Origin: a virus
Lineage: Duplodnaviria > Heunggongvirae > Uroviricota > Caudoviricetes
Length of the DNA: 64,000 nucleotides
Direction: 5' to 3' (one strand)
IMG/VR virus record: IMGVR_UViG_3300033153_005726
Span: 1-64,000 of that record
This document shows positions 15,619 to 57,100 of the stretch, piece after piece (positions within the stretch are counted from its first letter, which is position 1; the number at the start of each line of letters is the position of its first letter). The position numbers and the translations under genes are program-made. Under the pieces are notes generated by a model. It was not told the origin of the DNA. It ran no database searches and saw only the letters and a program-made list of their open reading frames with translations.

Positions 15619-15649
15619 AAAGCCCTGCCTCACGGTGGGGCTTTTTATT
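15619..15649 (+). terminator. rho-independent terminator AAGCCC(loop)GGGGCTTTTTATT
   Basis: GC stem plus T-tract directly after the SPFH stop. Confidence 0.5.
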
Positions 15650-16045
15650 ATGATTATTATAACGAAAGTAGAAACAATCACTGTTGACCGTGATCCTTAC
15701 GAGGTTTTACACCAAGCCATGCCAAATGGTTTTTGCACACCAGATTTAACTGCACCCCCTATGGAATGTGAGGTATTCAGTGAACTCATACACGGTATGC
15801 GTTGGCGTTGGCATGATAGGGACAATGATATTGACATCATTGTAGGTGTCAGTGGCGAAGCGGAAAAGATACTTAACCTTGGGTATGGTATAGTTGAAAA
15901 CCTGAAGAAAGAAACTAACCGCCTTGATGATCTGGTCATGATGCAGGGTATAAACATAAAAGACCAAACCAAAACCATAAAAAATTTACGTGATGCTTCC
16001 TTTTGGCAGCGGTTCAAATGGGTATTCACAGGGGTGACAGAATGA
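15635..16045 (+). CDS. hypothetical protein
   Basis: ORF track; ATGA overlap with thyX start. Confidence 0.35.
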   Translation: MGLFIMIIITKVETITVDRDPYEVLHQAMPNGFCTPDLTAPPMECEVFSELIHGMRWRWHDRDNDIDIIVGVSGEAEKILNLGYGIVENLKKETNRLDDLVMMQGINIKDQTKTIKNLRDASFWQRFKWVFTGVTE

Positions 16046-17775
16046 AAATAGTACAACCGACGGCTAAAGTATGGGGAGAATGTCCTACCAATATTGATGA
16101 AGCTATTGTGTGGATTGAACGTGCTGGGCGTGTATGCTACCGCTCAGAAGATAAAATCATTGAGGGTTCAGGTAGAAAGTTTGTTGATGGGATTGTCAGG
16201 CGTAAACATTTTTCAGTAATTGAACACTCAAATTTCGTTGTCCGCACCAAACCCCTTACTTCTCCACGTAAAGAAATGGAAAAGTTGCGTAACAAATACG
16301 CTACTCCATTCTTGCGTTTTTTATTAAAAGGTGATAGAGTATATATCGGTGGTAATTTTAGAGCGTGGATGGAAATGCTTAAATTAAATACTATTGATGA
16401 GTTATTTGATTATTCCTCTAATGATGGACTTAAACTAATCACTAATCACACTGATATCCCTAAACGCCTTAAAATGGTCACTGCTGAGTTTTTAACTGAT
16501 AGGGCAGTTACCCATGAACTTGTAAGACATCGACCTTCAAGTTATTGTTTAACAGGTGATACACTGATACATCACTTTGCTAATGAAAAAAATACAAATT
16601 CAACTGGCAAGAAAAGAACTATTAAACAATTATATGAATATAGCCAAGATCAACGTAAAGGGAGACTCAAGCTCATATCATTAACTGGTATGGATAATGA
16701 TGGTGAATTAATACCAGTACCAATAAAATCTATAATTAAATCTGGTGTTAAAAAAGTGTATAAATTAGTGACAGCTAATGGTAGAAAAATAAAAGCAAGC
16801 AGAAAACATAGGTTTTGTACTAAAAATGGTTGGAAACGTCTACATGAACTTACTGTCGGAGATTCTATTTTATGTAATGGTATTGAGGTGTCCAGGGAAT
16901 ATATTAAACAAAGGTATCTTATAGATAACTTACAGAGGAAAGACCTTGCAAAAGAAATAGGTATGTCTGATGTATGGTTAGGTAAAAAAATAGCCTTATG
17001 GGGGTTACAAAAACCAAAATCACAATATCCAGGACGTAAGGCAGGACATGGTAATCCTGGAATGCATAGCGAAGAAGAAAAAAAAGCCATTTCAAAACGT
17101 ATGAGTGGTGAAAATAATCACAGATGGAATGGGGGTGTGTGGAAAAATGGAAACACTCAATGTGTGAATAAGTATGATATCTCAAATGAATATTGTGTGT
17201 GCGGTATAAAAGCAGAAGAGCGACATCATATAGATAAAAATCCGAATAACAATGAACCTGATAACATAGAGTTTGTTTGCATCAAGTGCCATAAAGCAAG
17301 ACACTTTGATAAAGTTAAAATAGTATTTGAGGATGAGATAATTTCTATAAAATATGCTGGAAAAGAAGAAACCTATGATATCGAAATTGATCATCCATGT
17401 CATAACTTTATTGCAAATGGTTTAGTGGTTCATAATTCACAGGAATCACAACGATATTGTGCTTATCGCAAACATCTTGAAGTTATTATGCCTTGGCATT
17501 ATGATGGTAATAATCAATCTGCATGTTTTCAAATGTGGAAACAAGGAATTGAGTACTCAGAAAAAGCATATAAATATTTACTACAAAATGGAGAAAAAGC
17601 AGAACAAGCACGTAGTGTACTTCCCAATTCAACAGCAACGAGAATTGTTACAACTGCTACAGTTAAAGAATGGGAACATATCTTTATGTTACGTACTTCA
17701 GCAGCCGCATATCCTGGTATCAGAAACATAATCAATCCAGTAAAGTTGGACTTCCAAGAAAATAATTGGATATAA
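16042..17775 (+). CDS. thyX: flavin-dependent thymidylate synthase ThyX interrupted by an in-frame intein (precursor 578 aa; exteins about 281 aa)
   Basis: ThyX signature RHRxxSxxxxSxR is split: ...ELVRHRPSSY | C... ...VHN | SQESQRY...; C-extein ...ARSVLPNSTATRIVTTATVKEWEHIFMLRTSAAA is ThyX-like; GGGTG RBS before ATG 16042. Confidence 0.75.
   Translation: MKIVQPTAKVWGECPTNIDEAIVWIERAGRVCYRSEDKIIEGSGRKFVDGIVRRKHFSVIEHSNFVVRTKPLTSPRKEMEKLRNKYATPFLRFLLKGDRVYIGGNFRAWMEMLKLNTIDELFDYSSNDGLKLITNHTDIPKRLKMVTAEFLTDRAVTHELVRHRPSSYCLTGDTLIHHFANEKNTNSTGKKRTIKQLYEYSQDQRKGRLKLISLTGMDNDGELIPVPIKSIIKSGVKKVYKLVTANGRKIKASRKHRFCTKNGWKRLHELTVGDSILCNGIEVSREYIKQRYLIDNLQRKDLAKEIGMSDVWLGKKIALWGLQKPKSQYPGRKAGHGNPGMHSEEEKKAISKRMSGENNHRWNGGVWKNGNTQCVNKYDISNEYCVCGIKAEERHHIDKNPNNNEPDNIEFVCIKCHKARHFDKVKIVFEDEIISIKYAGKEETYDIEIDHPCHNFIANGLVVHNSQESQRYCAYRKHLEVIMPWHYDGNNQSACFQMWKQGIEYSEKAYKYLLQNGEKAEQARSVLPNSTATRIVTTATVKEWEHIFMLRTSAAAYPGIRNIINPVKLDFQENNWI
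16546..17436 (+). mobile_element. intein (297 aa) with embedded HNH endonuclease and HTH, inserted in the ThyX catalytic motif
   Basis: Starts CLTGDTLI (intein block A), ends GLVVHN (block G) followed by +1 Ser; internal CVCGIKAEERHHIDKNPNNNEPDNIEFVCIKCHKARH is an HNH/zinc motif; LIDNLQRKDLAKEIGMSDVW is HTH-like; removing it restores a contiguous RHRPSSYSQESQR motif. Confidence 0.7.
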
Positions 17776-27395: not shown

Positions 27396-30300
27396 TTATG
27401 GTACCCATACTATATTATGATTAGATCCTACTTGTTGTAATGTCCCGTTTTTACTGAGCAGTGGTTGATGTATCGGCCCGTGACCTGGAATGAATGGTAC
27501 TTGAGGTGTGTTTGGGTTGTTGGTTATGGTGAAGCCATGGATATCACCTCCACAATCCCTGTTTAACCCTGAATAATTACCTACGATGATGTTCCCAGAA
27601 CCCAAATCACCACTAGAAAAAGTAGGATTGGCATCATCTTGAAAAACTCCGTCAAGGGTAAGTGTCACATAATCTAAATCCGCATCATAGACAATTTCAA
27701 AATAATGCCACAAGCCATCCCAATAATCAGTACAATCAAGATTACAGATCTCAGATCCGTCGGGAAGGTAGAATGAAACAAGTATGCTGCTTGGAATTCT
27801 ACCCCGAAAAAACTCTTCACCACTGCTATGACCAAATACAGATGCATACGTGGAACTACTTGTATCAAGATGTCTATACCAGAAAGATATCTTTCCTCTG
27901 GTATTTATCGCATCACTATTTAATGGAAATAAAGCGTAATCAGTACCATCACCATCACCATCTGAATGAAAAGCACTATTTGCAATGCCATCAGGCCCTG
28001 TAACATGTGTAGCACCTGTAACTGTAATATCACCAGTTCCAATCTTCAAAGCATCGGAATCAGCTTCATCACCATGGATATAAGCAGTAATATCACTATG
28101 CGCCTTACTATAATCAGTTAAATTCCCTGGAATAAATGATCCGTAAGGGAGGATTGGTGTATCATAAATACAGAAGTTGTCTATGATGCCTCCTGCTCCG
28201 CTATCCACAGCGTCTGAAGCAATGTACAGATTGTCACCATTTGGAACTGGTGAATTTCCAGCCAATTCGACATTATCATCTGTAAGCAATCCGTCCAACC
28301 AAAGAATAGCCTTACCATCTTTATCCCATGTTAAAGTGATATTGTGCCACTCTCCGTCAAAAATATTAGTATGTACCCCTGACCCTCCAGGGCCATCAAA
28401 TGAATAAGAGTTTTCAGCATATCGGAATGTGAAACCTTCTGCATTCGGGCAATATAATGCGAAATCTGCTGAAGTAAGGCCAAACTGAAACATTCTCGAA
28501 TATCCAGCAAATGTTTCAGTTTGTTTGAAGTCAAAAGATATTGCTCCCGTGTCTAAACTAACATTGTTTCCATCAGTTGCAGTTATGTAAACTCCGTCAC
28601 CAGAATTAGGAATTTCTATTCCATTGCCTCGTTTGCCTAATACAAAAGATGAATCCCCTAATTCTACCGTATCGCCATCAGTAGCATCAAACACATCCAA
28701 AGTGTCAGAATCGCAATTCCACTGAACCAACAAATGCTCATCCTCACTGCCCACAGTACCCGTCCGAACACTCGCCTCATGTAATTCTATAGCAGGATTA
28801 ATCTCGTCTTGCTGGAAGTCAAGTTTGGTTGAATGAGAAACACGAAACATCTGGTAAGGATCAGCATGGAGAGATGCTATTTCTTCTGCTGAGAGGGCTC
28901 GGTTGTAGATGTAAATTGTTTCAACATTAGAATCTAAATAATCACTGCTTCTGGTCCTTCCAATTTGGAAATTATTTAACGTACCTAAAATTGTACCTGA
29001 ATGAGTTATATCATCAAAATAACCATTCATTCCTAAATTAATATTAGACGCTGTAACAATAGCAGATACAATTGAGCGATTTGCAGGAGTAGTTAAATTA
29101 GAGTCAGCTCTGGAATAATCAAGCGAACCATGAATAGTAAAACCAATATACCCTGTATTGTTATACTGCTCCATTTTCAAAGTATAACCATCTAAAGTAC
29201 CGTCGTTATACGCACAAATAGAACTACTAAGCCCAGGTGAAGCACCATTATTTACAATCGCAATAATAGTAAATGGAAAATCTTGTGGCAAACCACTTGT
29301 AGTGACAGACATATAATCAGAATTTGCCTGAATAAAATCTAATCCACCATCAACCCAATCAGGACCAGATATATTAGTAAAATCTGCTGTTCCTGCATAA
29401 TCAGCAACAGTGTCTCCACTCCCCTCATTCATCAGCCAAGCACCCACCAAACCATCAGCAAGGGAATGACCTGATATTAAAGAGGCCGATAATTTAGGTT
29501 TATCCTGGGGTTGGGGAAGATCAATATGATACGCGCCATCGGTTGCCATGCCGTGCCTGAACATTTGGTAAGGATCGTCATGAATCTGAGCTATTTCCTG
29601 GGCAGATAACGCCCTGTTATAAATATGAACGTAATGAATCTCGCCATTCCAGACATTACTCGTATCTGACTGGCCACCAAGGTACATATCGCCTGTGGAA
29701 TCATCAATATCACCTGTTTGCGTAGGTGGGGTACCCCCTGCTTTTACGCCATCTTTATAAACGATGAGTTCAGCTCCATCATAAGTCCCAGCAAGAGTAT
29801 ATTCAGTATCAGTTGATAGGATACCACCTTCGGAATCTTCCTCTATAACAGTAGCGGTTCCATTGTAAACACCGAACCGAAATCCATCAGATGTAGCAGA
29901 AGGCATACGAAGGAAAACACTATCATTTGCTGCTATTTTGAGCCATGTACCAATTGATGCACCCGTTTTTACCTTAGCTACGATGGTGATCCCATCAGTG
30001 TAGAGATCGTCAAGGTCCCCTATACTTACCTTACGGTCACTGTCGCTGTTGATATCAAGGCCGTCTGTAATCCAGCCATCAGATGCGGCCATGTTTCCAT
30101 CATTACTCCCCGTAGCGTCATGAACATCCGTTCCGGTATTTTCATTCATGATCCACGAACCAACAAGACCATTTGCAAGAGGATGATCAGTAATTAACGC
30201 TCTATCATATCCAGGTTTCCCGAAATCAGTATTCGGTATGTTGAGATCAGTTACAGCAGATCCGGTTGTGATGTCTGGGAGCGTTGTGTTGGAAGGGATA

Positions 30301-31049
30301 TCGTGGTATTGATTGCCTAGGAGGAGTCGTTCTGTCGATGTGTATTGCTTACCGCCATCTCTTTCTGCTGAGTCGATGACAACGCATATATTTTGCTTAT
30401 GTACCCCTGAAGCAATTGTGCCGTCATTCCAACCTGCAACGGATGCGCCCGCCCCCCATACAGCCTGTGTCCCCGTTGGTGCTTCAACGTCCTGATGCAT
30501 AACAGAAAACAATATGTCTATTTCTGTGGCAGTTGAACCTATATAGTTCTCGTCTGGCAAGTTTGTCCAATTTGTTCCTGATGTTTCAGTTATTGTTCCG
30601 TAGATATTCGCAACGCTTGTCCCATTATTAGACACCAAAACACCATTGCTATCGGTATCATTATCAATAACAATATCAGATGAAGTTTCCCATTTACATA
30701 CAACTGTAAAATGATCCTGATATACAGTAAACAGTAATTCAACCCCCGTCGACCCAGACAAATAACTGTTTCCTGTATATGTACTGTCGTAATTGCCAGA
30801 AAGAACAAAAACAACTCGTGTTGTATTATTCTCAATAATAGTTATTGTTTTATTTTCATCATATCCTAAAAAATAAATCGTACTTGCATGAACCCTGTTA
30901 TCTGAGATATAAATGAGATTAGTCGTATTTGCTTCATCTCGAATAGAAGCTATCCGATTATCCAGTTGGGATTTATGTACTCGCAACACATACCCATCAC
31001 AAAAAACGTCAATATAGTTACTCTGCTCATCAACTGTAAGATACATCAT
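27396..31049 (-). CDS. large tail fibre / receptor-binding protein with several ConA/LamG-like lectin domains
   Basis: Repeated LamG_3-type endings ...IYNRALSAQEIAQIHDDPYQMFR and ...IYNRALSAEEIASLHADPYQMFR. Confidence 0.55.
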   Translation of the reverse strand: MMYLTVDEQSNYIDVFCDGYVLRVHKSQLDNRIASIRDEANTTNLIYISDNRVHASTIYFLGYDENKTITIIENNTTRVVFVLSGNYDSTYTGNSYLSGSTGVELLFTVYQDHFTVVCKWETSSDIVIDNDTDSNGVLVSNNGTSVANIYGTITETSGTNWTNLPDENYIGSTATEIDILFSVMHQDVEAPTGTQAVWGAGASVAGWNDGTIASGVHKQNICVVIDSAERDGGKQYTSTERLLLGNQYHDIPSNTTLPDITTGSAVTDLNIPNTDFGKPGYDRALITDHPLANGLVGSWIMNENTGTDVHDATGSNDGNMAASDGWITDGLDINSDSDRKVSIGDLDDLYTDGITIVAKVKTGASIGTWLKIAANDSVFLRMPSATSDGFRFGVYNGTATVIEEDSEGGILSTDTEYTLAGTYDGAELIVYKDGVKAGGTPPTQTGDIDDSTGDMYLGGQSDTSNVWNGEIHYVHIYNRALSAQEIAQIHDDPYQMFRHGMATDGAYHIDLPQPQDKPKLSASLISGHSLADGLVGAWLMNEGSGDTVADYAGTADFTNISGPDWVDGGLDFIQANSDYMSVTTSGLPQDFPFTIIAIVNNGASPGLSSSICAYNDGTLDGYTLKMEQYNNTGYIGFTIHGSLDYSRADSNLTTPANRSIVSAIVTASNINLGMNGYFDDITHSGTILGTLNNFQIGRTRSSDYLDSNVETIYIYNRALSAEEIASLHADPYQMFRVSHSTKLDFQQDEINPAIELHEASVRTGTVGSEDEHLLVQWNCDSDTLDVFDATDGDTVELGDSSFVLGKRGNGIEIPNSGDGVYITATDGNNVSLDTGAISFDFKQTETFAGYSRMFQFGLTSADFALYCPNAEGFTFRYAENSYSFDGPGGSGVHTNIFDGEWHNITLTWDKDGKAILWLDGLLTDDNVELAGNSPVPNGDNLYIASDAVDSGAGGIIDNFCIYDTPILPYGSFIPGNLTDYSKAHSDITAYIHGDEADSDALKIGTGDITVTGATHVTGPDGIANSAFHSDGDGDGTDYALFPLNSDAINTRGKISFWYRHLDTSSSTYASVFGHSSGEEFFRGRIPSSILVSFYLPDGSEICNLDCTDYWDGLWHYFEIVYDADLDYVTLTLDGVFQDDANPTFSSGDLGSGNIIVGNYSGLNRDCGGDIHGFTITNNPNTPQVPFIPGHGPIHQPLLSKNGTLQQVGSNHNIVWVP

Positions 31050-41971: not shown

Positions 41972-44900
41972 TTAATTAAGAATGAATTCAAAAAATACGT
42001 CATCAGGGTTAGCTTGGATATCTAAATCCAATACCATTTTAAATTGAATCTCTATACCAATTGTGTCCATAGCTGCTGTTATCCCAGGAACTGCTAAACC
42101 ATTAGTACATTCAATCCATGAAGTATCCCCTGTTTTCATAACATACACTTTAATATGGGAATCACCTAGTATTGAAGTGTAACTCCAATTAACTTGAGAA
42201 AAAACTATAATACCATCATAAGGTTCTAAATCATATACTTCAGATGACCAGGAATCACTATTATTATATCTAATCTTTGTGAATTCAGGGAGTACAAAAT
42301 CAGTACTAGTTTTAATTCCAACTGCAACATCAAAAACCCCAACAGTAGAATCAAATAATGTATCAAATTCTGTAACAGTAAGTGCATCTACTTGCGTTTT
42401 AGTATTGTAATTGATTACATATTCAAAAGCTGCCGATAAAGCAAAGTTTGCTGAATTAAGACTTTTCTGCCAAACATCAACACCATCACGGTAATGCCAA
42501 TCAGAATCACCTGTGTCCCCATGTATAGCATCATCAGTTGATGCCACTGCTCTCCACGCAGCAGATTCATATACATAATAAGTATCATGATCAATTGTAA
42601 ATGCTAACCCGATAGTTTCATTTTTATCGTCTAGGGTTATATCAATAGCGGTAATACTTTCATCTAAAAATAAAGGGAAAGTAGTATGTACAGAATTGAA
42701 AAGATTCACTGTAAAAATGTCTGTATAAGTAGGTAAAACAGTATTTTTATAAATAAATGCGATATCATCAGCACTTAAATCAGTATCAAATATATAAAAA
42801 TCAGATAAAGAACCAATAAAATTACTAGCTTGGGAATTAGCACCTAATTCTATTGGAGCCGAACCAGCAGTTGGGCCATAAACATTCATAGCTGCTGTAA
42901 TAGATAATACACCATTTATGTAAATAGACCAAGTAAGATCAGTCCAATTACGGGTATGGACTATATGCATCCATTCATCAAGAAGTACAACATTAGTGGT
43001 AGTTTGAATTGACTGAGAAGAACTAGAATTACCACACCAAATATGAACCTTCTTATCTGTAGTTATATTTATAGTAATTTCATAAGTATGAGTAGTGCCA
43101 AATATAGCATGAATTTCAGATAAAGAAGTGCACTTCATCCAAAAACAAATTGACATCTCGTCTTCTGCAAGTGTACTTCTAAGTTCTTCTGGTAAAGAAA
43201 TAACCTGATCACCAGAACCAGTAAAAGTCATAGCAGAAGTGAGACGTAATGTATGATTAGCAGAAAAAATAAGATTGTCAGTCGTAAATCTTTCTAATCC
43301 ATTACGATCAGAACCAAATTGGTATGTAATTAAATTTGTGCCAGTAAGTACGCCAGATTTTCTAAGTTCAGTTGTAATGTACTGTAAATCAGTGTCAGTA
43401 CTCCCAGAAGTTTCTGAGATAGATATACGCACAGGAAAATCTGTTTGTTCCGTAGGTATATCTGTATAGTCAATAGTTGCTACTACCCCAACATAATCAT
43501 CCCATCCTTTTAATGTGGTAGACCCTGCCCAACTAGAATAAGTAATTAATGTATCCGTATTTGATTTATTAGTAAGTAATTCCCAATCAGCAGTTCTTTC
43601 AATATCAGAAATACGAACTTCATCTAATGTACCATCAAGAAATGCACCAACAACAGAATCGTCTGATTGAGCACCTATTGTAAATGGTTCTCCTGAAGAC
43701 CCAAAACCAGCAAACGTGCCAGTTTCGGTGACAGATAAAGCTATACCAGAAGCATATAGTGTAAGTCCAGCAGCGGTATCAGTTCCATTATAAACACCAG
43801 CAATAGTAGTCAATACGTCTGTTGTTATATTACCACCAGAAATGTAATCTGTAGCAGTACCAAATTGAATTTCATCTGAATTTGCAGGTATACCCATAAA
43901 AGCCCCTAAATTGGCTCCTGCTTGTCCTTTGGTTGTTATTGTACCCAAACTACTTGTTTGTGCTGCACGTTTAATCACGGCCTCATAAGTGAGTCCTGTA
44001 GCAGTAATTTCAAATGATGCATCAGTTACGCTTGCAACGTCACTTGAACCATTGAAATCAACAGCGTTTCCAATCATACCAGCTACAGTAGTTCCGCCAG
44101 TTAATGAAAGATGTAATTCATTTGCAGTAGAATCTATAATAATACCTGACTCATCTACCATATGATAAACAGCAATAAAATTAGAATCCCAAACATTTTG
44201 AGCTACGGTACTGCCAATTAAACCTACATAAGAAGTATTATCAGCATGGGTATTAGAAAAATAAAACCGCAATACAGTATCTTCAGTATTAGATAAAGTT
44301 GGTATTTTAACCCATAATTCTATTTGAGCATTTTCTATATCATATTTTTCAACTTCAACATAACATTGTTGTCCTGTTTCACCTATTTCGCAAGCTATTT
44401 TTAACCCTACTGGAAAAACAATACCCCCTGTGCCGCCATCAGCAATTTGAATGTTTGCTACATTCCCTTCAAAATACTCACCTGCCCCTGCTGTAGTTGT
44501 TACAGGTGATCCTGCACAAACACCACCAACAGTTTGTTGACCAGTACCATTACCAGAAGTAACTGTGCCAGTCTCACTTACTAATTCGACAAAAGTATTA
44601 TCAAATAAAGTAATGCCGGTATTAGAACATTTTAAATTATACCATGTATCATTCTGTACATTAGAAGAAGGTACTGTAATAGAAGTAATAATAGAATTTG
44701 CATTTCCAAATAAACCAATAGCACCAGAACCATCTAATGCAACTGCAACACCATTTGTGTCATCACCTGATTTATAAATTATTTGAGGGGTTTCTTTACT
44801 TACATCTGTTGGTTTGAATTTACAAAGAATATCAATATCTGATTCATCGCCTACCCCTGCTGGTGAAGTATCTGCACAAGTGTCTAATTCATGAATAGCT

Positions 44901-46921
44901 CCAGTACCATCGAAAGCAATATGATCAGGTTGGATACTTGTACCTAAAACTACACCATCAAAATTGCGTATATCATCTCTCCAATGTCCACGCAAAGAAT
45001 AAAAATTTACGGGGGCAACTTCAATGCCTTCTAATGTAAACATGGTGTCTGTAAGATTATGAGCATAAATTGTTTCTACATCAAGTGGGGTTAGTATAGG
45101 TGGGACAGATGGTATAAGTCCAATCTGTACACCATCAGGGACTGTAGTATTTGTAACAAAGTTTGCTAGAAAAACACCTGTGAACTCAGTTCCTGCTGCA
45201 TGGCTAGACACCCCAGGCCACAAAGGCCCTGTTATGCCAGAAAAAGCAGCAGCTTTACCCACAGGAGAACCTGCATCATCAGAACCTTGCCAACCATCCC
45301 CTTCAACCCAAAAATAAAGGGCACCATCCATAAATAGTACACCAATACGATCGCCAGCACCCCATGTAATTCCATATGTTACTTGAGAAGCACTATGCAT
45401 GTGTGTCCCATTTACCCCAAAGTAACCCCAACTTGTATCATTAACTCCCACATAGTGAGTATCAAGTTGATACGCTGATAATACACCAATTATATTATTA
45501 GCATTTCCAACTGTTCCTACTACCACTTCAAAGTAAAATGCATCTGAATTAGATGTAGTGCATTGAGCAGTACACCATCCCGCTAAAATAGAAGTTACAG
45601 TTAAATCATTATTACTACCTGTAAAATATGTTGCACTAAAGTCATCGAATACATTAAATTCAGGTATACTTGGATATGAAATTGTTGGTGGGGTAAAATC
45701 TTCAGACCAACGTACTATCCCCGTAGAGATCCTGATTTCGTCCAGATATCCTTCCATGTCCGAAGATGTATATCCTGGCCCTAGTCGTCCTACCGTCACA
45801 GGGTTTGAATGCGTATTAATAGTTACAGATGTTTCTGTTACATCAATAATACCATTAAAATATAATTTTAAATCTGTTCCATCATAAACAACAGCAATAT
45901 GTGTCCATGTATCTACTGGAACGGCAGTGATACCAGTTAGTACCACTACATTGTCACTATACACATTAATACCACCGCCACTAGGTCTAGAAAGATACCA
46001 ACCTGCCATTGAGCCGCCACCCTCACTCTTACCAATAAAACCCATATTTCCAGTATCTGTTGGGTGTATCCAAAAATCAATAGACCACGAACCTGATGAT
46101 AAATCTAAATCTACATGATCTTGCACAGAAAGGTAATCACCAGTACCACCAAAATAAATAGAAGTAGTTCTAAACTTATGTTGATCTATTTCGTGGTGTA
46201 CATCACCAGTAACAGCAATAACATGAGTACTATCAGAATTGTCTTTAAACATGATAGACTCATCAACTGTATTTGACTGAATTAAAAGTTTAGTATATTG
46301 ATCATTCCCACCAATACCTAGAAAACTAGGAACAAATTTTGTTAAATCTCCATCAAGAAAAACACTACCTAATTCATAAATAACATGAGCACCATTTACA
46401 ATAAGTCCTGGTTGTATATCATCTCTGCCAATGACTTCCTCAGATGAAGAATCTGTTAGTTTCCCTTCATATGGAACATACAACCATTCTATGGTTTCTA
46501 TATTGTCTTTTAAATTATGCTCGGCAACAATATACATAAAAGAAACTATCTTTGCATCAAACTGTAAAACACCAGTAACATAAATAAGACCAGCATCAGG
46601 GAATATTAATGAATCATACTCTGCTGGATGGTCAAAATTTACATTACATAGTGAAATCCTGTCATATATATCAGCGTTAAAGTCACCGCCTTCATCTCTA
46701 CATATAAGAGTAATGGATTCATCAGGACAATAGGGAACATCAAGTAGCCAATCACCTGTAGAAATGTCAGCAACAGTGACACCAAGTAATTCTCCAGTAA
46801 CCCTATAATAAGCAAGGATTGTTTTTGCAGCCGAATTACCAGAAGTAACTGTGCCAGACATACGCATTTTTATAGAATTAGAATCAAATTCACTCGAAAT
46901 CCATTTTCTATTAGTTAACAT
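41972..46921 (-). CDS. giant fibre/baseplate protein (1649 aa) with ConA/LamG-like lectin domains
   Basis: ...NAVDFNGSSDVASV... and ...LDEVRISDIERTADW..., ...YLDEIRISTGIVRWSEDF... match LamG/ConA-like patterns. Confidence 0.5.
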   Translation of the reverse strand: MLTNRKWISSEFDSNSIKMRMSGTVTSGNSAAKTILAYYRVTGELLGVTVADISTGDWLLDVPYCPDESITLICRDEGGDFNADIYDRISLCNVNFDHPAEYDSLIFPDAGLIYVTGVLQFDAKIVSFMYIVAEHNLKDNIETIEWLYVPYEGKLTDSSSEEVIGRDDIQPGLIVNGAHVIYELGSVFLDGDLTKFVPSFLGIGGNDQYTKLLIQSNTVDESIMFKDNSDSTHVIAVTGDVHHEIDQHKFRTTSIYFGGTGDYLSVQDHVDLDLSSGSWSIDFWIHPTDTGNMGFIGKSEGGGSMAGWYLSRPSGGGINVYSDNVVVLTGITAVPVDTWTHIAVVYDGTDLKLYFNGIIDVTETSVTINTHSNPVTVGRLGPGYTSSDMEGYLDEIRISTGIVRWSEDFTPPTISYPSIPEFNVFDDFSATYFTGSNNDLTVTSILAGWCTAQCTTSNSDAFYFEVVVGTVGNANNIIGVLSAYQLDTHYVGVNDTSWGYFGVNGTHMHSASQVTYGITWGAGDRIGVLFMDGALYFWVEGDGWQGSDDAGSPVGKAAAFSGITGPLWPGVSSHAAGTEFTGVFLANFVTNTTVPDGVQIGLIPSVPPILTPLDVETIYAHNLTDTMFTLEGIEVAPVNFYSLRGHWRDDIRNFDGVVLGTSIQPDHIAFDGTGAIHELDTCADTSPAGVGDESDIDILCKFKPTDVSKETPQIIYKSGDDTNGVAVALDGSGAIGLFGNANSIITSITVPSSNVQNDTWYNLKCSNTGITLFDNTFVELVSETGTVTSGNGTGQQTVGGVCAGSPVTTTAGAGEYFEGNVANIQIADGGTGGIVFPVGLKIACEIGETGQQCYVEVEKYDIENAQIELWVKIPTLSNTEDTVLRFYFSNTHADNTSYVGLIGSTVAQNVWDSNFIAVYHMVDESGIIIDSTANELHLSLTGGTTVAGMIGNAVDFNGSSDVASVTDASFEITATGLTYEAVIKRAAQTSSLGTITTKGQAGANLGAFMGIPANSDEIQFGTATDYISGGNITTDVLTTIAGVYNGTDTAAGLTLYASGIALSVTETGTFAGFGSSGEPFTIGAQSDDSVVGAFLDGTLDEVRISDIERTADWELLTNKSNTDTLITYSSWAGSTTLKGWDDYVGVVATIDYTDIPTEQTDFPVRISISETSGSTDTDLQYITTELRKSGVLTGTNLITYQFGSDRNGLERFTTDNLIFSANHTLRLTSAMTFTGSGDQVISLPEELRSTLAEDEMSICFWMKCTSLSEIHAIFGTTHTYEITINITTDKKVHIWCGNSSSSQSIQTTTNVVLLDEWMHIVHTRNWTDLTWSIYINGVLSITAAMNVYGPTAGSAPIELGANSQASNFIGSLSDFYIFDTDLSADDIAFIYKNTVLPTYTDIFTVNLFNSVHTTFPLFLDESITAIDITLDDKNETIGLAFTIDHDTYYVYESAAWRAVASTDDAIHGDTGDSDWHYRDGVDVWQKSLNSANFALSAAFEYVINYNTKTQVDALTVTEFDTLFDSTVGVFDVAVGIKTSTDFVLPEFTKIRYNNSDSWSSEVYDLEPYDGIIVFSQVNWSYTSILGDSHIKVYVMKTGDTSWIECTNGLAVPGITAAMDTIGIEIQFKMVLDLDIQANPDDVFFEFILN

Positions 46922-50800: not shown

Positions 50801-52087
50801 GTTACCTTCAATGTTATTTTTTATCTGTCCATCACCTATATCCCATATAGAATACCATTTACCACCAGCAAGGAAATCTATTTTCAAACTTCCTGGTTGT
50901 GGTAATGGATTGCAACTAAATGTGTAAACAAATCCACGATTATTGGTATCAATTATAATGCCACCAGTTTCAGAAATCTGTTGAGGGGCACAAGCGGGAA
51001 TGTATACAGCAGATCCAGTACCAGAAGAAGTAATACCAGCATCACCAAAAGTGATAATACCTGTATCATATGCTATAGAACCTATTATAGTCCCGCCTAC
51101 AGATGGTGTCCATATATTATTTTGCCCATCATCTTCCAATGCCAGACCACCAGTCCAGCTAAAAGTTTTTGGTAAAACTCCCTCACCGATAAATAATTTA
51201 GCATTAGTGCTTATGCTATATTGAATACTTCTGGTAACAGTTGTTTGTGCATCCTCTGTTTGAATCATTGGTGCTATAGAAACACCAACTCCAGCATCTG
51301 TAATAGCAGTTTCTGAAGCTGCTGAAGGAACTAAAGCTGTTTGTATATCATCTACTTGTATTTGCAATTCACCAGCATTAGCATTTTCAAGTAAATTAGA
51401 AACACCATAATAACGAGAAGCATCTGCTGCAACCGTAGTATATATAGGGGTACTTTCCATATTATTCCAATCATAATAAATTTCAGCCCCATCAAGGTCA
51501 TTTGCTAATTGAGAACCTAATGTGATAGAAATATGATTTCTATAGTAGACATTCTCATCGTCTGTATAAAATTCAGTGAGTTCTGAAGATAAATCTATTA
51601 TACGGACATACTGTTCTGTCACACCTTCACCTAAAACAAGTACATCTCCTATTTCAGGGATAGGCCAATTTGCTAAAGTGATACAAGAAAGAAACGCAGT
51701 GCCAGCATAATGATTGCCCCATAATTTAATATTGGCACTTGGTCCTTTTACAAGATATGCTTCTATACGATCACGAGCATCCTCACGTACACTAAACCAA
51801 TCTTTATTAGAAAAGAAGCAAACCGACACATTAGGGTCTTTTGCCTGTTCAGTTATAATTGTGTGCGAACCATAGTACGTTTCTCTATTTGCAGTTTGTA
51901 CAGCAAGGTAAGCTTTACGCATTGATACCCGACCATATACACGATCAAGTCTTGAAATATCTGGAAACAGATTATTAACAACCCCATCAACAACTTCAAT
52001 AGAAGTCATTTGGCCACCACCTTGATCAGTATCATCAAGACGCTGTGATTCCATTAATTTAATATCTTCTTTATTTATGTCAGCCAT
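47840..52087 (-). CDS. giant tail tip / baseplate hub-like protein (1415 aa; Tal-like position downstream of TMP and Dit-like gene)
   Basis: Position and size; no motif-level confirmation. Confidence 0.4.
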   Translation of the reverse strand: MADINKEDIKLMESQRLDDTDQGGGQMTSIEVVDGVVNNLFPDISRLDRVYGRVSMRKAYLAVQTANRETYYGSHTIITEQAKDPNVSVCFFSNKDWFSVREDARDRIEAYLVKGPSANIKLWGNHYAGTAFLSCITLANWPIPEIGDVLVLGEGVTEQYVRIIDLSSELTEFYTDDENVYYRNHISITLGSQLANDLDGAEIYYDWNNMESTPIYTTVAADASRYYGVSNLLENANAGELQIQVDDIQTALVPSAASETAITDAGVGVSIAPMIQTEDAQTTVTRSIQYSISTNAKLFIGEGVLPKTFSWTGGLALEDDGQNNIWTPSVGGTIIGSIAYDTGIITFGDAGITSSGTGSAVYIPACAPQQISETGGIIIDTNNRGFVYTFSCNPLPQPGSLKIDFLAGGKWYSIWDIGDGQIKNNIEGNESLGSGSVNYDTGSVSITLGAMPDVDSQVLFFWAKPSELYDLSGETLPLKYEFTTENDGVARNTFVFTWVGDGNGPGPANEYGIVDDGNSLLQDAEYDFGDATTWIASTSYELTDEVLPITKNGYTYECTVAGTSNSSEPTWPIVPGSTVDDGGVTWECQLADIGDWSPAASPITVGSIKYATGEVELQPAASQSTPVASEVFTISYNYGDPFTDVFEAPPRDGLGHIHLTLTNTPIVPGTFNILWHTDLEEYDPETRIDMTIDPIYFFKDDGAGNFAGDIDDGSDNWVQGTINYTTGEIMYHPDRISVFPHAVYDWMVTEWMHPGVVESYVFDYIEYLPAASTFPADGSVTCSYCTTDGANFDTYSGTIAPTYTIKPDKYLEIIPGGLHISAAGQHIVDGTNGNLYTHVDGIVGNKTQVGTVNYAQKTFTIISDSINIASMEIDFCAGSGVIDPTMTLVFRAPGAPIRPGSAFIRGTTGGGTLIEGQSDFSGDITGAGIVGHVNFSTGLCKVSFGTWVLDDAEAQAADWYNANTESGGNVWKPYVVRASTILMNCVITSYLPLDPDLLGLDPVRLPLDGRVPIFRDGYIIVVHYSVSSTGEDLGGPQGDDLLSRDASQIDDWEGNPCATQNNNNTLPLAVDHKVEIITDAGATLYPNRDLIEVYALPTAFDTLNGDLTCPKYVPEAGEYTVNLEPLDGTGDDDIRTASVTFLAGFPDNGGTGFGTAHNAMYDGQSTPRDVVILSRIEDMCLASDVQVTGHIAITSALTHSYPADGTLVSSVLPSADLQARAYNEFEQSVWDGTWSDERIDAEPLASYNFVDYPITVTNAPSIKERWLIKFTSTTKVSVIGEKFGVQSLGIVDGNPVDEVKVAELTSEEITAIRAKGAYPGNVSGVYGYPGELDPLCLIIHNKQFPINEEKGITTTNQSYFVIKLDGFGSSWATGNCIRFNTDAANFPLWFIRTTLQAPPTEPVDYYTIQIRGDSS

Positions 52088-53508
52088 TACTGTACCCTCT
52101 TAAATTTTATATGACCACAATCAAATACCCTGCTAAACCCATTATTACGCATATTCTGAATTTCAGTTAAATCTGCATCAAACAAATCCAATTTAGCAGC
52201 CAGTTTGTTTTTCTGGAATTGTTGCCTTGACCCTAAGTAAGAACCCCCATGCACATAAAAATAATTCGGCTGTGTTACTTTATCTAATATAAACCCATTA
52301 TGCGTATAGGAACTTCCAGTGTATACACGTTGATCAACATAAGAATATGTTACCGTGGAATGTGCTAAGAGCCTAGAAAACCCACCAAGTATTGTTGTAT
52401 TTCTTGCTACTACATATCTGACTAACTCACCATCACTAGCTACTATAAGTAAAGCTGCTAATCTCTTCCCTGATATTAATCCTAAGTAAGATGATCCAGA
52501 ACGGAACCCATGTAAATGATGTTTTTCACAAAAATTTCTTGCTACTTTTGGTTCTACTGCCCTTAATTGTAATTTTCTAGCGAATAACCTTTTTTTATAC
52601 ATCCCTAATTTGTTTAAAATAATAGATTTTACTATATCTTTCTTATGCTTCCACTCAAAATCCCAAAACTGCATTAAATGTATATCAAGTGCAGCACATG
52701 CATCTGTTTTATTTTTATGGTACAATTTCCCCTTACCTGTATCTTCTGAGTGCCAGTAAATACCATTATATTCTATCGCCAATTTAAAATCCGGTAAGTA
52801 TAAATCAAGTTCTTTAGGTGCTATTATTTTTCTAGAACGTTCTATAACATGCACATCAAGAGAACGCAACCAAGTGACTAACTCAGATTCACCTTTAGAT
52901 TGCAATGTAGCACATTTTGGGCAGCACCAACCACGCATGTGGTTGGAAGCTATTTGGTCAAATACACCATGATCAGGACATACTATTTTAACAGTGGAAT
53001 GTGTAGTGGTATAAACAACCAAAGAATAATCATACTTATTTCCGTGAATGGCTTTAGACTTTTTAATAAACCCTTCAGTAGTGCCACGCAGGGTATTCCC
53101 ATTGAACTGTAAAGCACACTGTTTACATCCCTTACCACTAGTATGCCCACCAGCCCTTTGTCTAAATCCACCGTGCACAGGACATATTATAATAATAAAA
53201 CCACCATATCCATTGTACACAACTTTTGAATAATCGTATTTATCTCCATGTACTTCTTTAGCTTTTATCAAAAATGAATCAGTGCAATCTTTATTATTAA
53301 CAGAATTGTTTATGTCGGCACATTTTCTACACCCTTGTTTCATATTTATATGGGCAGAAGCTCTCTGAATAAAACTACCATGTACAGGACAAATAATAGT
53401 TACCATAGATTTAGAAGTACCTACAACAGAATCTGAATAATCAAAAATAGTGCCATGTATTTCTTTGGCCCATTTTATAAAATTCTCTGTATTCCATTTT
53501 TTACGCAT
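52087..53508 (-). CDS. DUF559/Vsr-like PD-(D/E)xK endonuclease with three N-terminal zinc-ribbon repeats (homing-endonuclease-like), embedded in the tail module
   Basis: Three repeats of xKAKExHGxKYDYSxVVY...ICPxHGxFxQ...H..GxGCxxC; then ELDLYLPDFKLAIEYNGIYWHS matching the DUF559/Vsr core; TAATG overlap with downstream gene. Confidence 0.55.
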   Translation of the reverse strand: MRKKWNTENFIKWAKEIHGTIFDYSDSVVGTSKSMVTIICPVHGSFIQRASAHINMKQGCRKCADINNSVNNKDCTDSFLIKAKEVHGDKYDYSKVVYNGYGGFIIIICPVHGGFRQRAGGHTSGKGCKQCALQFNGNTLRGTTEGFIKKSKAIHGNKYDYSLVVYTTTHSTVKIVCPDHGVFDQIASNHMRGWCCPKCATLQSKGESELVTWLRSLDVHVIERSRKIIAPKELDLYLPDFKLAIEYNGIYWHSEDTGKGKLYHKNKTDACAALDIHLMQFWDFEWKHKKDIVKSIILNKLGMYKKRLFARKLQLRAVEPKVARNFCEKHHLHGFRSGSSYLGLISGKRLAALLIVASDGELVRYVVARNTTILGGFSRLLAHSTVTYSYVDQRVYTGSSYTHNGFILDKVTQPNYFYVHGGSYLGSRQQFQKNKLAAKLDLFDADLTEIQNMRNNGFSRVFDCGHIKFKRVQ

Positions 53509-54199: not shown

Positions 54200-57100
54200 C
54201 TACGACCTCATCTTTGCTAATGCTAAATCATTAAGTATTGAATCAATACCAGCTTGTGAACCATATAATTCTTCATGCTGTGTACCATTCACTGTTAATT
54301 CAAGTGAATGTTTAACTGATTCTAGAGCGGATTGTCGTACACTATTTTGTACTGTGCCAACAACACCACCAAGATTGAATCCAGGGATCTTAAAGTTGTT
54401 TAGTGCGTCAAAGAAACCAGCACCAAAGTGAGAAACAACGCCCTCTTTCATTACAAACTCGCCAGGGGTGAGAGCCGCCATAATTGAATCTTTTCCTGGA
54501 ATTGATGTGCTTGTATGCGGTACAGAACCACCAGTATTAAAACCAAATAATCCTTTACCAAGACGTTTTAATAATTCTTCAATTGAAAATGTTCTAGCTG
54601 TGCCAACTTCTTCTTTCATATCAGTGGCAGTATCCAAAGCTTTTAATGTATCTTCAGATGATTCACTAGCTAACTTATCTTGAAGGGCAGTTAATTCAGT
54701 TTGCGTTTCTTCTTTTTGTGATTCTGCATCAGTCTCAGCAGTAGCAGAAGCAGAAGCAACAGCATCTTCATAAGATGCAAGTAGGGAAGTCAATGAATCA
54801 GCGAGCGACTCATCAGCAGAATCAACAGAATCATTATAGGATTCTAAATAATCTGCCATGTCCTCTGCATAAGATTCATTCTCATCAGTATTACTGCCAT
54901 CATAACTTTCTAAATAATCAGCTAATGCTTCAACATGATCTTCATCGCGATCAGTTACATCTTCAGCATGATCAGTTGTATAATCACTCCAATCATCATC
55001 ATAATTAGTTTTAGCTTCATCATATGCGGCTTGGGCTTCATCAAGTTCAGCTTGTTTATCAGCCTCTGAAATAATCAAAGCAAGTGAAGAAATATCCTGG
55101 GTACCAGCAATAACGCCAGAAGTATTTGTTATTCCAAGGTCTTCTAATGAAGATAGTGATGAAAGCCAAGTAGACCACTTCTGGGCAGCTTCTTCTAAGG
55201 CTGTTTCTTTTTGGGTGGCGGCAGTGGCGTGATCAATACCATTTGCCATTTGTCTAACCCAATAACCCTCAATGGCACGTTCGTATGTACTCAAATCAGG
55301 TACATCGTACCCTTCATATGGATATGTATTGGACTCACCTCTCCAAGTACTAGTATCGCCATAGTTTCTGCCAGAAGTATTTATGTCTTCGGCAGCTTCA
55401 CGGGCACTGCTACGTGCATCTATTAAATCACCCCATAATTCATAATACTTATCTTTGTATTCATCATCAATATCAGCTTGCTCTTCTTCATAATCATCAA
55501 GGTTATCATTAGAATTTTCATCATAATCTGTTTCAGTATCAGTATAATCCTCAGTATCATCATCTACTGTATCATTATAAGACTCATTCTCATCTTCAAC
55601 ACTATCATCATATGTTTCTTGAGTATCGCTAAGTGTATCAGTGTTACTCTCATCCCTGTCATCTACAGATTCATTATAACTTTCTTTAGCATCTGCAACA
55701 GATTCATCATGATCTTCAGTGGTATCTACTACATCCTCATCATACTCAGCAGTAAGTGTAGCGATTTTTTCTTTTAATTCCTCAGAAATGGCAAGTAGGG
55801 CTGCTTGTTCTTTTGCAAGGATGGCAGCTTGCTCATAACTATCGCCTTGATTAGCTTTAGAAATTAAATCATCATAAATAATGTTGATTCCTTTCGTAGC
55901 ACTATCAAAATCAATAGTATTTATACTACCGCCATAAGCATAGCCATTCACTGTACTCGTAAAGGCATCTGTAAGCCTGTTCACTGACTCAACACCTAAT
56001 TCACTGGTAATGTCCTTTGAACTATTTGCGACCGTATTTTGAAAGTTTACGCTGTCTACATTAAGGTTAACGTCACGGCCTACTTCAGAACCAAACAATT
56101 CATAAAGGCGTTTTTTCATTGAGCCAATAACACCAGAAAGAACAGAACCACCACGTGCGAAATTCTGCACCACACTTGATGAGTCAAAATCAAACTGGAC
56201 TGGTCCACCTTTAGCGAAATGAGGTACGGCCTTCTTTGCCATCTCAATTGGATATGAACCTGAGTTGACCATATCCATAAAGCGTTTACCATATTTCTTC
56301 ACAGCAGCTACTTTATGAACAAACTCACCTTTCATCAGCATGGCAGGTACATCATCTTTACTACCACCACCCCTTGTTATGAATGGGTTGGCAAGTTTTC
56401 TGAATACACCGCCACCTGCATCAAAACCTTGTATTTCTCCACCATGTGCTCTAGCTTCAGAAGGTGGTGACCCTTCAGTTTTATATTTAGTGGTGATGGT
56501 GATAGTTTTATCTTTCAACTTATCAATAGCACTTTTAAGTTCACGGACTTTGTCAATACCAGTTACCTTTGCTATCACTTCTACAGTTTTGTTTACTAAA
56601 GAATCTATAAGCTGTTTTAAAGTAACAACATCCTCAGTGCCAGTTACATTTGCAACAACATCTACAACTGTAGGATTAGCTTGGTCTATTAAACCTAACC
56701 ATTCCTCAAGGGAACGCATATCATCAGAACCATTCACTTTCACATTTACTGTAATATCAGTGCCACCACCAAGTTCTTCTAACTGAGCAACAAACTCAGT
56801 AAAGTCCTCTTGAGAAAGTTGGATTGTTACTTCTGGCACTTCATCTCCAATAGCATTTAGTTTTTCTTTTATTTCATCTATCTTTTCAGTGGCAGGGGCA
56901 GCAGGAGAAGCAGCAAGTAGTAACTGGCCAGTAACCTCAAATGTCTCACCAGCTAGGGTCTGTAATTCAACCTTAGCTTCGTCAACGCCTTCAGTATTAA
57001 CAGCAAGCATTACACCTTCTTCTGGTAACACTTTAGGTAATTCTTCCAGGTCTTGCGTAGCTTTTTCTGTATCAGCCTCAACCTCCATTGTGACAGGTTC

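What the first reader, a model, noticed from the sequence alone, without database searches (positions are those of the whole stretch)
16546..17436. HNH-type intein inserted in the catalytic RHRxxSxxxxSxR motif of ThyX
The 590-aa ORF is ThyX-like on both sides of a 297-aa insertion. The insertion begins CLTGDTLI and ends GLVVHN+S, the canonical intein N- and C-terminal splice blocks. Removing residues 182-478 restores a contiguous ThyX signature RHRPSSYSQESQR. The insert carries an HNH endonuclease motif (CVCG...RHHID...N...CIKCH) and an HTH rather than a LAGLIDADG domain. Insertion at a catalytic motif is typical intein homing behaviour. HNH inteins are the less common class.
Basis: partly seen in the sequence, partly recalled or inferred. 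Interest (0 to 1): 0.7.

Follow-up and report, generated by a model that had tools for sequence, protein, structure and literature searches.

The report
HNH-type intein splitting phage ThyX

Summary
The observation and the interpretation both hold. The thyX ORF most likely starts at ATG 16042 (577 aa). It contains a 297-aa in-frame insert at nt 16546-17436. Removing the insert restores RHRPSSYSQESQR and lifts the thyX equivalog score above its cutoff. The insert is a canonical class-1 intein: Cys1, block-B His, block-F Asp, C-terminal His-Asn and Ser+1. By sequence (E 1.9e-16) and predicted fold (TM 0.79-0.93) it matches solved DnaB and RecA inteins. A 145-aa module sits between the two intein lobes: a three-helix HTH, a NUMOD3-like helix and a divergent zinc-finger HNH nuclease. 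No LAGLIDADG domain is present.

It is not novel in kind. HNH inteins have been known since 1997, and ThyX inteins are published for Trichodesmium and mycobacteriophages. Nearly all of the about 200 closest database proteins have the same architecture.

Three things add detail. The intein is more conserved than its host enzyme across relatives. Syntenic relatives carry a mini-intein (nuclease module deleted) or a second LAGLIDADG intein. Homologous inteins occupy three sites 2-3 codons apart within the same ThyX motif, apparently after several site switches. This copy is not allelic with the published ThyX inteins.

Splicing and nuclease activity remain inferred.

The parts
16042..17775 (+). 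thyX precursor gene (577 aa plus stop; 66.8 kDa precursor). An upstream in-frame TTG lies at 16003.
   Evidence: 100% identical to database protein P0001.
16042..16545 (+). N-extein (168 aa), ending ...ELVRHRPSSY
   Evidence: Thy1/thyX match.
16546..17436 (+). Intein, 297 aa, 34.0 kDa, class 1 (Cys1 ... His-Asn)
16546..16881 (+). HINT N-lobe (intein residues 1-112). Block A is CLTGDTLI. Block B is GRKIKASRKHRF, with invariant His88 at nt 16807-16809 and Ser in place of the usual Thr.
   Evidence: TIGR01445 scores 34.4 bits.
16882..17316 (+). Homing-endonuclease module (intein residues 113-257). This is exactly the segment missing in the mini-inteins of relatives.
   Evidence: AlphaFold2 pLDDT 90.
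16894..16998 (+). Three-helix HTH DNA-binding element (intein residues 117-151)
17065..17121 (+). NUMOD3-like DNA-binding helix (intein residues 174-192, GMHSEEEKKAISKRMSGEN)
   Evidence: Pfam NUMOD3 E 0.009-0.013, below cutoff. Above cutoff in the free-standing homologue P0186.
17191..17304 (+). HNH (beta-beta-alpha-metal) nuclease core with Cys216/Cys218...Cys245/Cys248 and His227-His228, Asp230, Asn240, His249, His253 (intein numbering)
17317..17436 (+). HINT C-lobe. Block F is EETYDIEIDHPCHNFIANG (invariant Asp278). Block G is GLVVHN (His296, Asn297).
   Evidence: TIGR01443 scores 21.2 bits.
17437..17772 (+). C-extein (112 aa), starting with the +1 Ser: SQESQRYCAY... The DNA TCACAGGAATCACAACGA holds a 5/6 direct repeat (SQ-E-SQ).

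Best explanation
A tailed-phage thyX gene (flavin-dependent thymidylate synthase) carries a mobile class-1 intein inside the codons of the ThyX motif.

Shown here:
- The insert is in frame and bounded by Cys1 and His-Asn/Ser+1.
- It has a HINT fold.
- Excising it restores an intact ThyX motif.
- A modular HTH-NUMOD3-HNH nuclease is nested between the two HINT lobes.
- The catalytic residues of both activities are conserved across the family.
- The intein is more conserved than its host protein.

Inferred:
- The 66.8-kDa precursor splices itself. The steps would be an N-S acyl shift at Tyr-Cys1, transesterification to Ser+1, cyclisation of Asn297, and an O-N shift. The products would be a 32.8-kDa active ThyX and a free 34-kDa intein.
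- The unspliced precursor should be inactive, because the insert splits the dUMP-binding loop.
- The intein's HNH module, guided by its HTH and NUMOD3 elements, nicks or cuts intein-less thyX alleles of co-infecting relatives near the motif codons. Recombinational repair from the intein-plus copy then copies the element in (homing).
For: Boundaries and motif restoration:
- Shown: - Thy1 rises from 105.6 to 127.9 bits on excision. TIGR02170 thyX rises from 75.4 bits (below its 87.9 cutoff) to 98.9 bits.
- The spliced sequence aligns without a gap to M. tuberculosis ThyX RHRHFSYSQLSQRY.

HINT domain:
- Pfam Intein_splicing scores 2.1e-17.
- Npu and Ssp DnaB inteins match at E 1.9e-16 and 9.3e-13.
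- The AlphaFold2 model has pLDDT 86. Foldseek finds mini-inteins at E down to 3e-12 with target TM 0.79-0.93, the nuclease module forming an insertion between the two halves.
- Cys1, His88, Asp278, His296 and Asn297 are invariant in 40 relatives.

Nuclease module:
- Free-standing HTH/NUMOD3/HNH proteins match the whole module (P0163 and P0186).

Mobility:
- Versus P0007, the exteins are 41-45% identical but the HINT domain is 69%.
- Versus P0009, the exteins are 44-45% identical and the HINT domain 75%.
- Versus P0002, the exteins are 66-68% identical and the nuclease module 81%.

Homing-cycle signatures:
- Mini-inteins of about 150 aa lack exactly the nuclease module (P0006, P0009, P0021, P0096, P0098, P0112).
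- Partial deletions occur in P0084 and P0106.
- One of the mini-inteins sits in a syntenic relative of this phage (L084).
Against: - No experiment: neither splicing nor DNA cleavage is shown.
- The sequence itself scores below the Pfam HNH and NUMOD3 cutoffs.
- Foldseek with the nuclease module alone found nothing significant.
- The first zinc-ligand pair is CxC instead of the usual CxxC.
- Block B has Ser instead of Thr.
- No intein-less allele with more than about 40% extein identity appeared among the listed hits. The element may therefore be fixed in this lineage, with no current homing target.
Confidence: 0.88

Rival explanations
1. The intein still splices, but its HNH module no longer works as a homing nuclease. 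The element would be fixed in this phage lineage and simply tolerated, on the way to becoming a mini-intein.
For: - All the closest relatives carry the intein or a mini-derivative, and no close intein-less allele was found.
- Nuclease deletions are frequent in the family.
- The first zinc pair is an unusual CxC.
- Pfam HNH scores only 13.5 bits.
Against: - His-His, Asp, Asn, CxxCH and His are invariant or nearly so.
- The CxC form is shared by the whole subclade rather than being a private lesion.
- The nuclease module is more conserved than the host enzyme versus P0002 and P0004: 81% and 76% against 51-68%.
Confidence: 0.25
2. The insert is a non-splicing domain or the gene is a disrupted pseudogene, so this locus makes no functional ThyX.
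For: There is no direct evidence. The only support is that splicing is untested.
Against: - The ORF is uninterrupted and the flanks are in frame.
- All residues needed for the four splicing steps are present and invariant in relatives.
- The extein catalytic residues are conserved.
- The related Ter ThyX intein splices efficiently in E. coli (PMC3620165).
Confidence: 0.03
3. The intein acts as a conditional switch (redox, temperature or substrate) that times ThyX activity during infection, and is not purely selfish.
For: It sits in the substrate-binding loop, so ThyX activity depends on splicing. Conditional splicing has been proposed for other inteins (reviewed in PMC4760082).
Against: - Nothing in this sequence points to it. 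There is no nearby extein Cys to form a redox trap: the flank here is PSSY, whereas some relatives have PCSF.
- The distribution is sporadic, horizontal, and shows nuclease decay. That pattern fits a selfish element.
Confidence: 0.07

Closest known systems
Mycobacteriophage cluster C1 (Bixzunavirus) ThyX inteins, e.g. phage Norm gp94 (Kelley et al. 2016, PMC5050341; bioRxiv 10.1101/2025.01.02.630785)
   Same: - A phage ThyX interrupted in the RHR motif by a class-1 intein with an in-frame HNH nuclease.
- Cys1, ...VVHN and Ser+1.
- The C-terminal splicing block is 39% identical to ours.
   Different: - The insertion site is two residues upstream: RHRSGF|intein|SYNEESGRY, before the first conserved Ser. 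The two are therefore not alleles.
- The nuclease module there is a shorter HNH without the HTH-NUMOD3 array.
- Similarity is detectable only over about 20% of the intein.
Ter ThyX intein of Trichodesmium erythraeum (InBase name; splicing shown in E. coli, PMC3620165)
   Same: A ThyX-motif intein with Cys1/His-Asn/Ser+1. Its splicing has been verified experimentally for engineered mini and split versions.
   Different: - In the Trichodesmium MAG locus L041 the site is THRIGC|intein|SFDVQSYRF, before the first conserved Ser (site c).
- It sits in a cellular (cyanobacterial) host.
- Its central domain shows no intact HH...N...CxxCH signature on inspection.
Same-site ThyX inteins in public data, e.g. 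Methanomassiliicoccales virus vir335 thymidylate synthase (BK063680.1) and about 100 metagenomic proteins (P0002-P0118)
   Same: - Identical insertion point: RHRxxS[YF]|C...HN|SQxSxRY.
- The same HINT + HTH (+NUMOD3) + HNH layout.
- P0002 is 73% identical over the whole precursor.
   Different: These are unannotated or annotated only as 'thymidylate synthase'. vir335 is 28% identical to ours over the intein.
Ssp/Npu DnaB inteins (PDB 1MI8, 4O1R)
   Same: The closest solved HINT domains: E 1.9e-16 and TM 0.85-0.88, with blocks A, B, F and G aligned.
   Different: A different host protein. They are engineered or natural mini-inteins, or carry LAGLIDADG-type nuclease domains.
Modular phage HNH homing endonucleases of the I-HmuI type, and small HNH nickases (GVE2 HNH 5H0O, Gme HNH 4H9D)
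   Different: - Here the order is HTH, then NUMOD3, then HNH.
- The module is embedded in an intein rather than free-standing or intron-encoded.
- Similarity to I-HmuI itself was not tested.

Membership tests
Intein (class 1, HINT domain) | In-frame insertion in a conserved host protein; removing it restores a contiguous host sequence | tested here: met
   The thyX equivalog score rises above its cutoff only after excision.
Intein (class 1, HINT domain) | N-terminal Cys or Ser nucleophile (block A) | tested here: met
   Cys1 in CLTGDTLI. Invariant in 40 relatives.
Intein (class 1, HINT domain) | Block B TxxH | tested here: met
   The sequence is SRKH. His88 is invariant. Thr is replaced by Ser here and in the closest relatives, while others have Thr. 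This is a conservative variant.
Intein (class 1, HINT domain) | Block F Asp, penultimate His, C-terminal Asn, and +1 Ser/Thr/Cys | tested here: met
   Asp278, His296, Asn297 and Ser+1 are present. TIGR01443 is above cutoff.
Intein (class 1, HINT domain) | HINT fold | tested here: met
   Foldseek matches Ssp/Npu DnaB and Mtu RecA inteins at E 3e-12 to 1e-9, target TM 0.79-0.93. Pfam PF14890 scores 63.8 bits against a cutoff of 35.8.
Intein (class 1, HINT domain) | Autocatalytic protein splicing | not testable with these tools
   Needs expression plus western blot or mass spectrometry.
HNH / His-Me finger homing endonuclease | Beta-beta-alpha-metal fold | tested here: met
HNH / His-Me finger homing endonuclease | Catalytic His, Asn and His/Asn residues plus Cys4 zinc ligands | tested here: met
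   His227, His228, Asp230 and Asn240 are invariant. Cys245, Cys248, His249 and His253 are at least 90% conserved. The first Cys pair is CxC here rather than CxxC.
HNH / His-Me finger homing endonuclease | Match to a curated HNH model at its threshold | tested here: not met
   PF01844 scores 13.5 bits against a cutoff of 21.4, and only 3-4 of 40 relatives hit HNH models at E<0.01. Indirect links exist: a family profile hits the IscB HNH at 3e-5, and the module matches the free-standing HNH_3/NUMOD3 protein P0186 at 6e-8.
HNH / His-Me finger homing endonuclease | Site-specific cleavage of the intein-less allele | not testable with these tools
   Needs a biochemical assay.
ThyX (flavin-dependent thymidylate synthase, PF02511 / TIGR02170) | Thy1 domain and the ThyX motif RHRxxSxxxxSxR | tested here: met
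   After excision, PF02511 scores 127.9 bits and TIGR02170 98.9 bits (cutoff 87.9). The motif is restored. Solved ThyX structures match at E 5e-15.
Allele of the published ThyX inteins (Ter ThyX, mycobacteriophage C1) | Same insertion point in the host protein | tested here: not met
   The published ones sit before the first conserved Ser of the motif. This one sits two residues further on, after motif position 7.
LAGLIDADG-type intein | LAGLIDADG endonuclease domain between the HINT lobes | tested here: not met
   No LAGLIDADG hit at E<=1. The central module is an HTH plus a beta-beta-alpha fold.
Bacterial intein-like (BIL) domain | HINT domain in a non-conserved region of a variable protein, usually without a canonical +1 nucleophile or ligation | tested here: not met
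   It is inserted in the most conserved motif of an enzyme, with canonical His-Asn/Ser+1. BIL2 structures rank far below true inteins.

The most novel reading that the evidence does not exclude
This intein belongs to a family that has moved repeatedly between three insertion points 2-3 codons apart inside one catalytic motif: before Ser6, after residue 7, and before Ser11 of RHRxxSxxxxSxR.

A plausible cause is its modular HTH-NUMOD3-HNH nuclease. Such a nuclease would recognise the conserved motif DNA but cut at a distance from the insertion point. Repair could then land the element in a slipped register, for example at the SQ-E-SQ codon repeat, wherever a Ser or Cys can serve as the +1 residue. 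That would be a concrete route by which inteins colonise new sites. It would also conflict with the usual rule that related inteins share one site.
Probability: 0.35. Interest if true: 0.5.

Novelty: new member of a known kind. Interest (0 to 1): 0.27.

Why it matters
For annotation, the gene should be called as one thyX precursor with an intein, not as a fusion or a hypothetical protein. The phage's own dTMP synthesis depends on splicing.

For the intein field, it adds a well-preserved, probably active HNH-type intein with an HTH-NUMOD3-HNH module from an uncultured tailed phage. As far as I recall, few or none of the HNH intein nucleases have been characterised biochemically.

The family around it includes full-length forms, mini-inteins, double-intein alleles and three adjacent insertion sites. 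That makes it a compact natural dataset on the homing cycle and on how inteins change sites.

The element itself is neither surprising nor new in kind.

Tried and rejected
- Megablast of 3 kb around the gene against 50,697 phage records found no match, so no close cultured relative exists.
- An exact-sequence look-up of P0001 on contigs found nothing on record.
- I first suspected that the 3149-aa ORF was an N4-type virion RNA polymerase. That is rejected: it matches PhageMin_Tail, a tape measure protein.
- Base composition was tested as a sign of foreign origin. The intein is 32.3% GC, the N-extein 37.5%, the C-extein 34.8% and the window 37.4%. HINT GC3 is 14.5%. This is a slight AT bias and is not decisive.
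- A profile search of all six-frame ORFs for a second intein in the window found only this one.
- Bootstrapped neighbour-joining trees for site switching gave only moderate support, 45-76% for the mixed-site clades. The claim is therefore kept as a lead.
- Literature searches found no description of adjacent-site switching in ThyX. The held library is incomplete and InBase could not be consulted.

Full report
**1. The observation**

ORF 16003..17775 (+) is 590 aa from a TTG. Cys182 begins at nt 16546 (CLTGDTLI). His477-Asn478 ends at nt 17436 and is followed by Ser. Deleting residues 182-478 produces RHRPSSYSQESQR, an exact instance of the ThyX motif RHRxxSxxxxSxR. The DNA reads ...CAT CGA CCT TCA AGT TAT | TGT TTA ACA ... 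CAT AAT | TCA CAG GAA TCA CAA CGA....

The likely start is ATG 16042, preceded by AGGGGTGA. This gives a 577-aa protein that is in the public collection at 100% identity (P0001, JGI, contig of 86 kb).

**2. What the parts are: host protein**

Pfam Thy1 scores 105.6 bits on the precursor and 127.9 bits after excision. The NCBIfam thyX equivalog TIGR02170 scores 75.4 bits with the insert, below its 87.9 cutoff, and 98.9 bits without it.

The spliced sequence aligns without a gap across the motif to M. tuberculosis ThyX, RHRHFSYSQLSQRY. In the chain positions of 3gwc_A, the insert falls between Tyr101 and Ser102. Residues that are invariant in relatives include the RHR triplet, Q/S/R of the motif, and the downstream Arg residues.

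**3. What the parts are: intein**

- Pfam Intein_splicing scores 63.8 bits. TIGR01445 and TIGR01443 are above their cutoffs.
- Both HINT halves match the Npu and Ssp DnaB inteins at E 1.9e-16 and 9.3e-13.
- An AlphaFold2 model of the 297 residues has pLDDT 86. It superposes on DnaB and RecA mini-inteins with target-normalised TM 0.79-0.93. The middle 145 residues form an inserted module.
- Cys1, His88 (block B), Asp278 (block F), His296 and Asn297 are invariant in 40 relatives.
- Block B has Ser in place of Thr, here and in the nearest relatives.
- With Cys1, His-Asn and Ser+1, this is a class-1 intein. It is the only intein in the window.

**4. What the parts are: nuclease module**

The module spans intein residues 113-257 (nt 16882-17316). 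It is exactly the segment missing in the mini-inteins of relatives. Modelled alone it reaches pLDDT 90.

It consists of three elements:
- a three-helix bundle at residues 117-151;
- a helix that weakly matches NUMOD3 (E 0.009);
- a beta-beta-alpha unit at residues 225-253.

An exhaustive search with the module found 475 proteins at E<=0.001. All full-length matches that I scanned were ThyX precursors. Several of them also carried a second, LAGLIDADG intein. Small free-standing proteins with HTH_23+HNH (P0163) or NUMOD3+HNH_3 (P0186) match the whole module.

His227, His228, Asp230 and Asn240 are invariant, and Cys245, Cys248, His249 and His253 are nearly so. The sequence itself stays below the Pfam HNH cutoff (13.5 against 21.4 bits), and few relatives pass it. 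The HNH call therefore rests on combined evidence. No LAGLIDADG signal is present.

**5. Context**

The window is part of a tailed-phage genome. It encodes a DNA ligase, nucleases, tail proteins, a 3149-aa tape measure protein and two Laminin_G_3-rich giant proteins. It has no close cultured relative.

The thyX neighbours match T5-like Vibrio phages and crAss-like phages at 30-40% identity. Two metagenomic contigs are syntenic around thyX. L084 carries a 150-aa mini-intein at the same site. L083 carries the full HNH intein plus a second LAGLIDADG intein at AGRT|C...N|CYRSE.

**6. Evidence of mobility**

Across relatives, the intein is more conserved than the enzyme it interrupts.

| Relative | Extein identity | HINT identity | Nuclease identity |
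|---|---|---|---|
| P0002 | 66-68% | 80% | 81% |
| P0007 | 41-45% | 69% | 56% |
| P0009 (mini-intein) | 44-45% | 75% | none |

Nuclease deletions are common. They are complete in P0006, P0009, P0021, P0096, P0098 and P0112, and partial in P0084 and P0106. This is the expected picture of a homing cycle.

Among the 120 listed hits, only one (P0119, 38% identity) lacks an intein. The element therefore looks fixed in the sampled lineage.

**7. Comparison with what is known**

- HNH inteins have been known since Dalgaard et al. 1997 (cited in PMC5050341 and).
- ThyX is a listed intein host in Actinobacteria and Cyanobacteria (PMC4760082).
- The Ter ThyX intein splices efficiently (PMC3620165).
- Mycobacteriophage C1 ThyX inteins were reported in 2016 (PMC5050341).
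- In-frame HNH nuclease domains in actinobacteriophage thymidylate synthase inteins were reported in 2025.

I checked the insertion points. Phage Norm has RHRSGF|intein|SYNEESGRY. The Trichodesmium MAG has THRIGC|intein|SFDVQSYRF. Both sit before the first conserved Ser, two residues upstream of the site used here. This intein is therefore not an allele of the published ones.

It is an allele of the intein in Methanomassiliicoccales virus vir335 and of about 100 metagenomic proteins. A scan of 185,579 species genomes confirmed 344 relatives. In the 80 loci kept, ThyX-motif inteins, many of them HNH-type, occur in Gemmatimonadota, Actinomycetota including Streptomyces, Planctomycetota, Chloroflexota and others.

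**8. Three adjacent insertion sites (side finding)**

Homologous inteins occupy three sites in the motif, and the spliced motif length is the same in all three:
- site c: RHRxx|S...
- site a: RHRxxSx|S/C... (this window)
- site b: RHRxxSxxxx|S...

Of 148 inteins, 97 are at site a, 30 at site b and 21 at site c. A neighbour-joining tree needs at least 8 site changes.

Cross-site pairs reach 57-61% identity over the whole intein: P0094 (c) against P0061 (a), and P0008 (b) against this intein. P0094 and its a-site relatives P0058 and P0061 all use Cys as the +1 residue.

Bootstrap support for the mixed-site clades is only 45-76%. The nuclease module of one b-site clade is 55-62% identical to ours although its HINT domain is only 33-45% identical. 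That hints at exchange of modules.

The C-extein DNA begins with a 5/6 direct repeat, TCACAG GAA TCACAA. Slipped-register repair at this repeat could shift the element by three codons. This mechanism is an inference.

A group I intron (RF00028, 71.8 bits) interrupts thyX of a crAss-like phage just upstream of the same motif. The motif codons thus appear to be a general hot spot for homing elements.

**9. Verdict**

This is a genuine, intact class-1 intein with a modular HNH nuclease in a phage ThyX. It is a new member of a known kind and of modest interest. Splicing and nuclease activity are inferred, not shown.

Noticed in passing
window 16546 and 17437 (splice junctions); proteins P0008, P0011, P0094; loci L001, L041, L016-L049: Homologous HNH inteins sit at three sites 2-3 codons apart inside the ThyX motif. 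The intein tree needs at least 8 site switches. Cross-site pairs reach 57-61% identity. The nuclease and HINT parts give partly discordant groupings.
   Followed up: partly
L083 6001-8808 (GCA_029935835.1, contig JAPOGW010000040.1): A syntenic relative's ThyX (P0003, 935 aa) carries a second intein in addition to the HNH intein. It is LAGLIDADG-type and about 355 aa, at AGRT|CFSDD...WIGN|CYRSE.
   Followed up: partly
L084 6001-7308 (JGI 3300039229): Another syntenic relative has a 150-aa mini-intein at the same site. Exactly the nuclease module (our intein residues about 113-257) is deleted.
   Followed up: partly
L086 1450-1829 (Kehishuvirus 'tikkala', OQ198717.1): thyX of a crAss-like phage is annotated as two CDS. 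The gap is a group I intron (RF00028, 71.8 bits) inserted a few codons upstream of the RHR motif.
   Followed up: partly
window 54200-63649 (-): A 3149-aa ORF matches PhageMin_Tail (6e-45). This is an unusually long tape measure protein, which implies a very long tail.
   Followed up: partly
window 52087-53508 (-): A 473-aa ORF lies between the tape measure gene and a 1415-aa ORF. It matches phage families annotated as HNH or homing endonuclease (phrog_559 8e-103, phrog_3339 2e-84). It may be a free-standing homing endonuclease within the tail module.
   Followed up: no
window 27396-31049 (-) and 41972-46921 (-): Two giant ORFs of 1217 and 1649 aa each contain three Laminin_G_3 (concanavalin-like lectin) stretches. 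They are probably tail fibre or receptor-binding proteins.
   Followed up: no
window 16003-16045: The TTG-initiated reading of thyX overlaps the end of upstream ORF 15635..16045. ATG 16042, which has a Shine-Dalgarno-like AGGGGTGA upstream, is the more likely start.
   Followed up: yes
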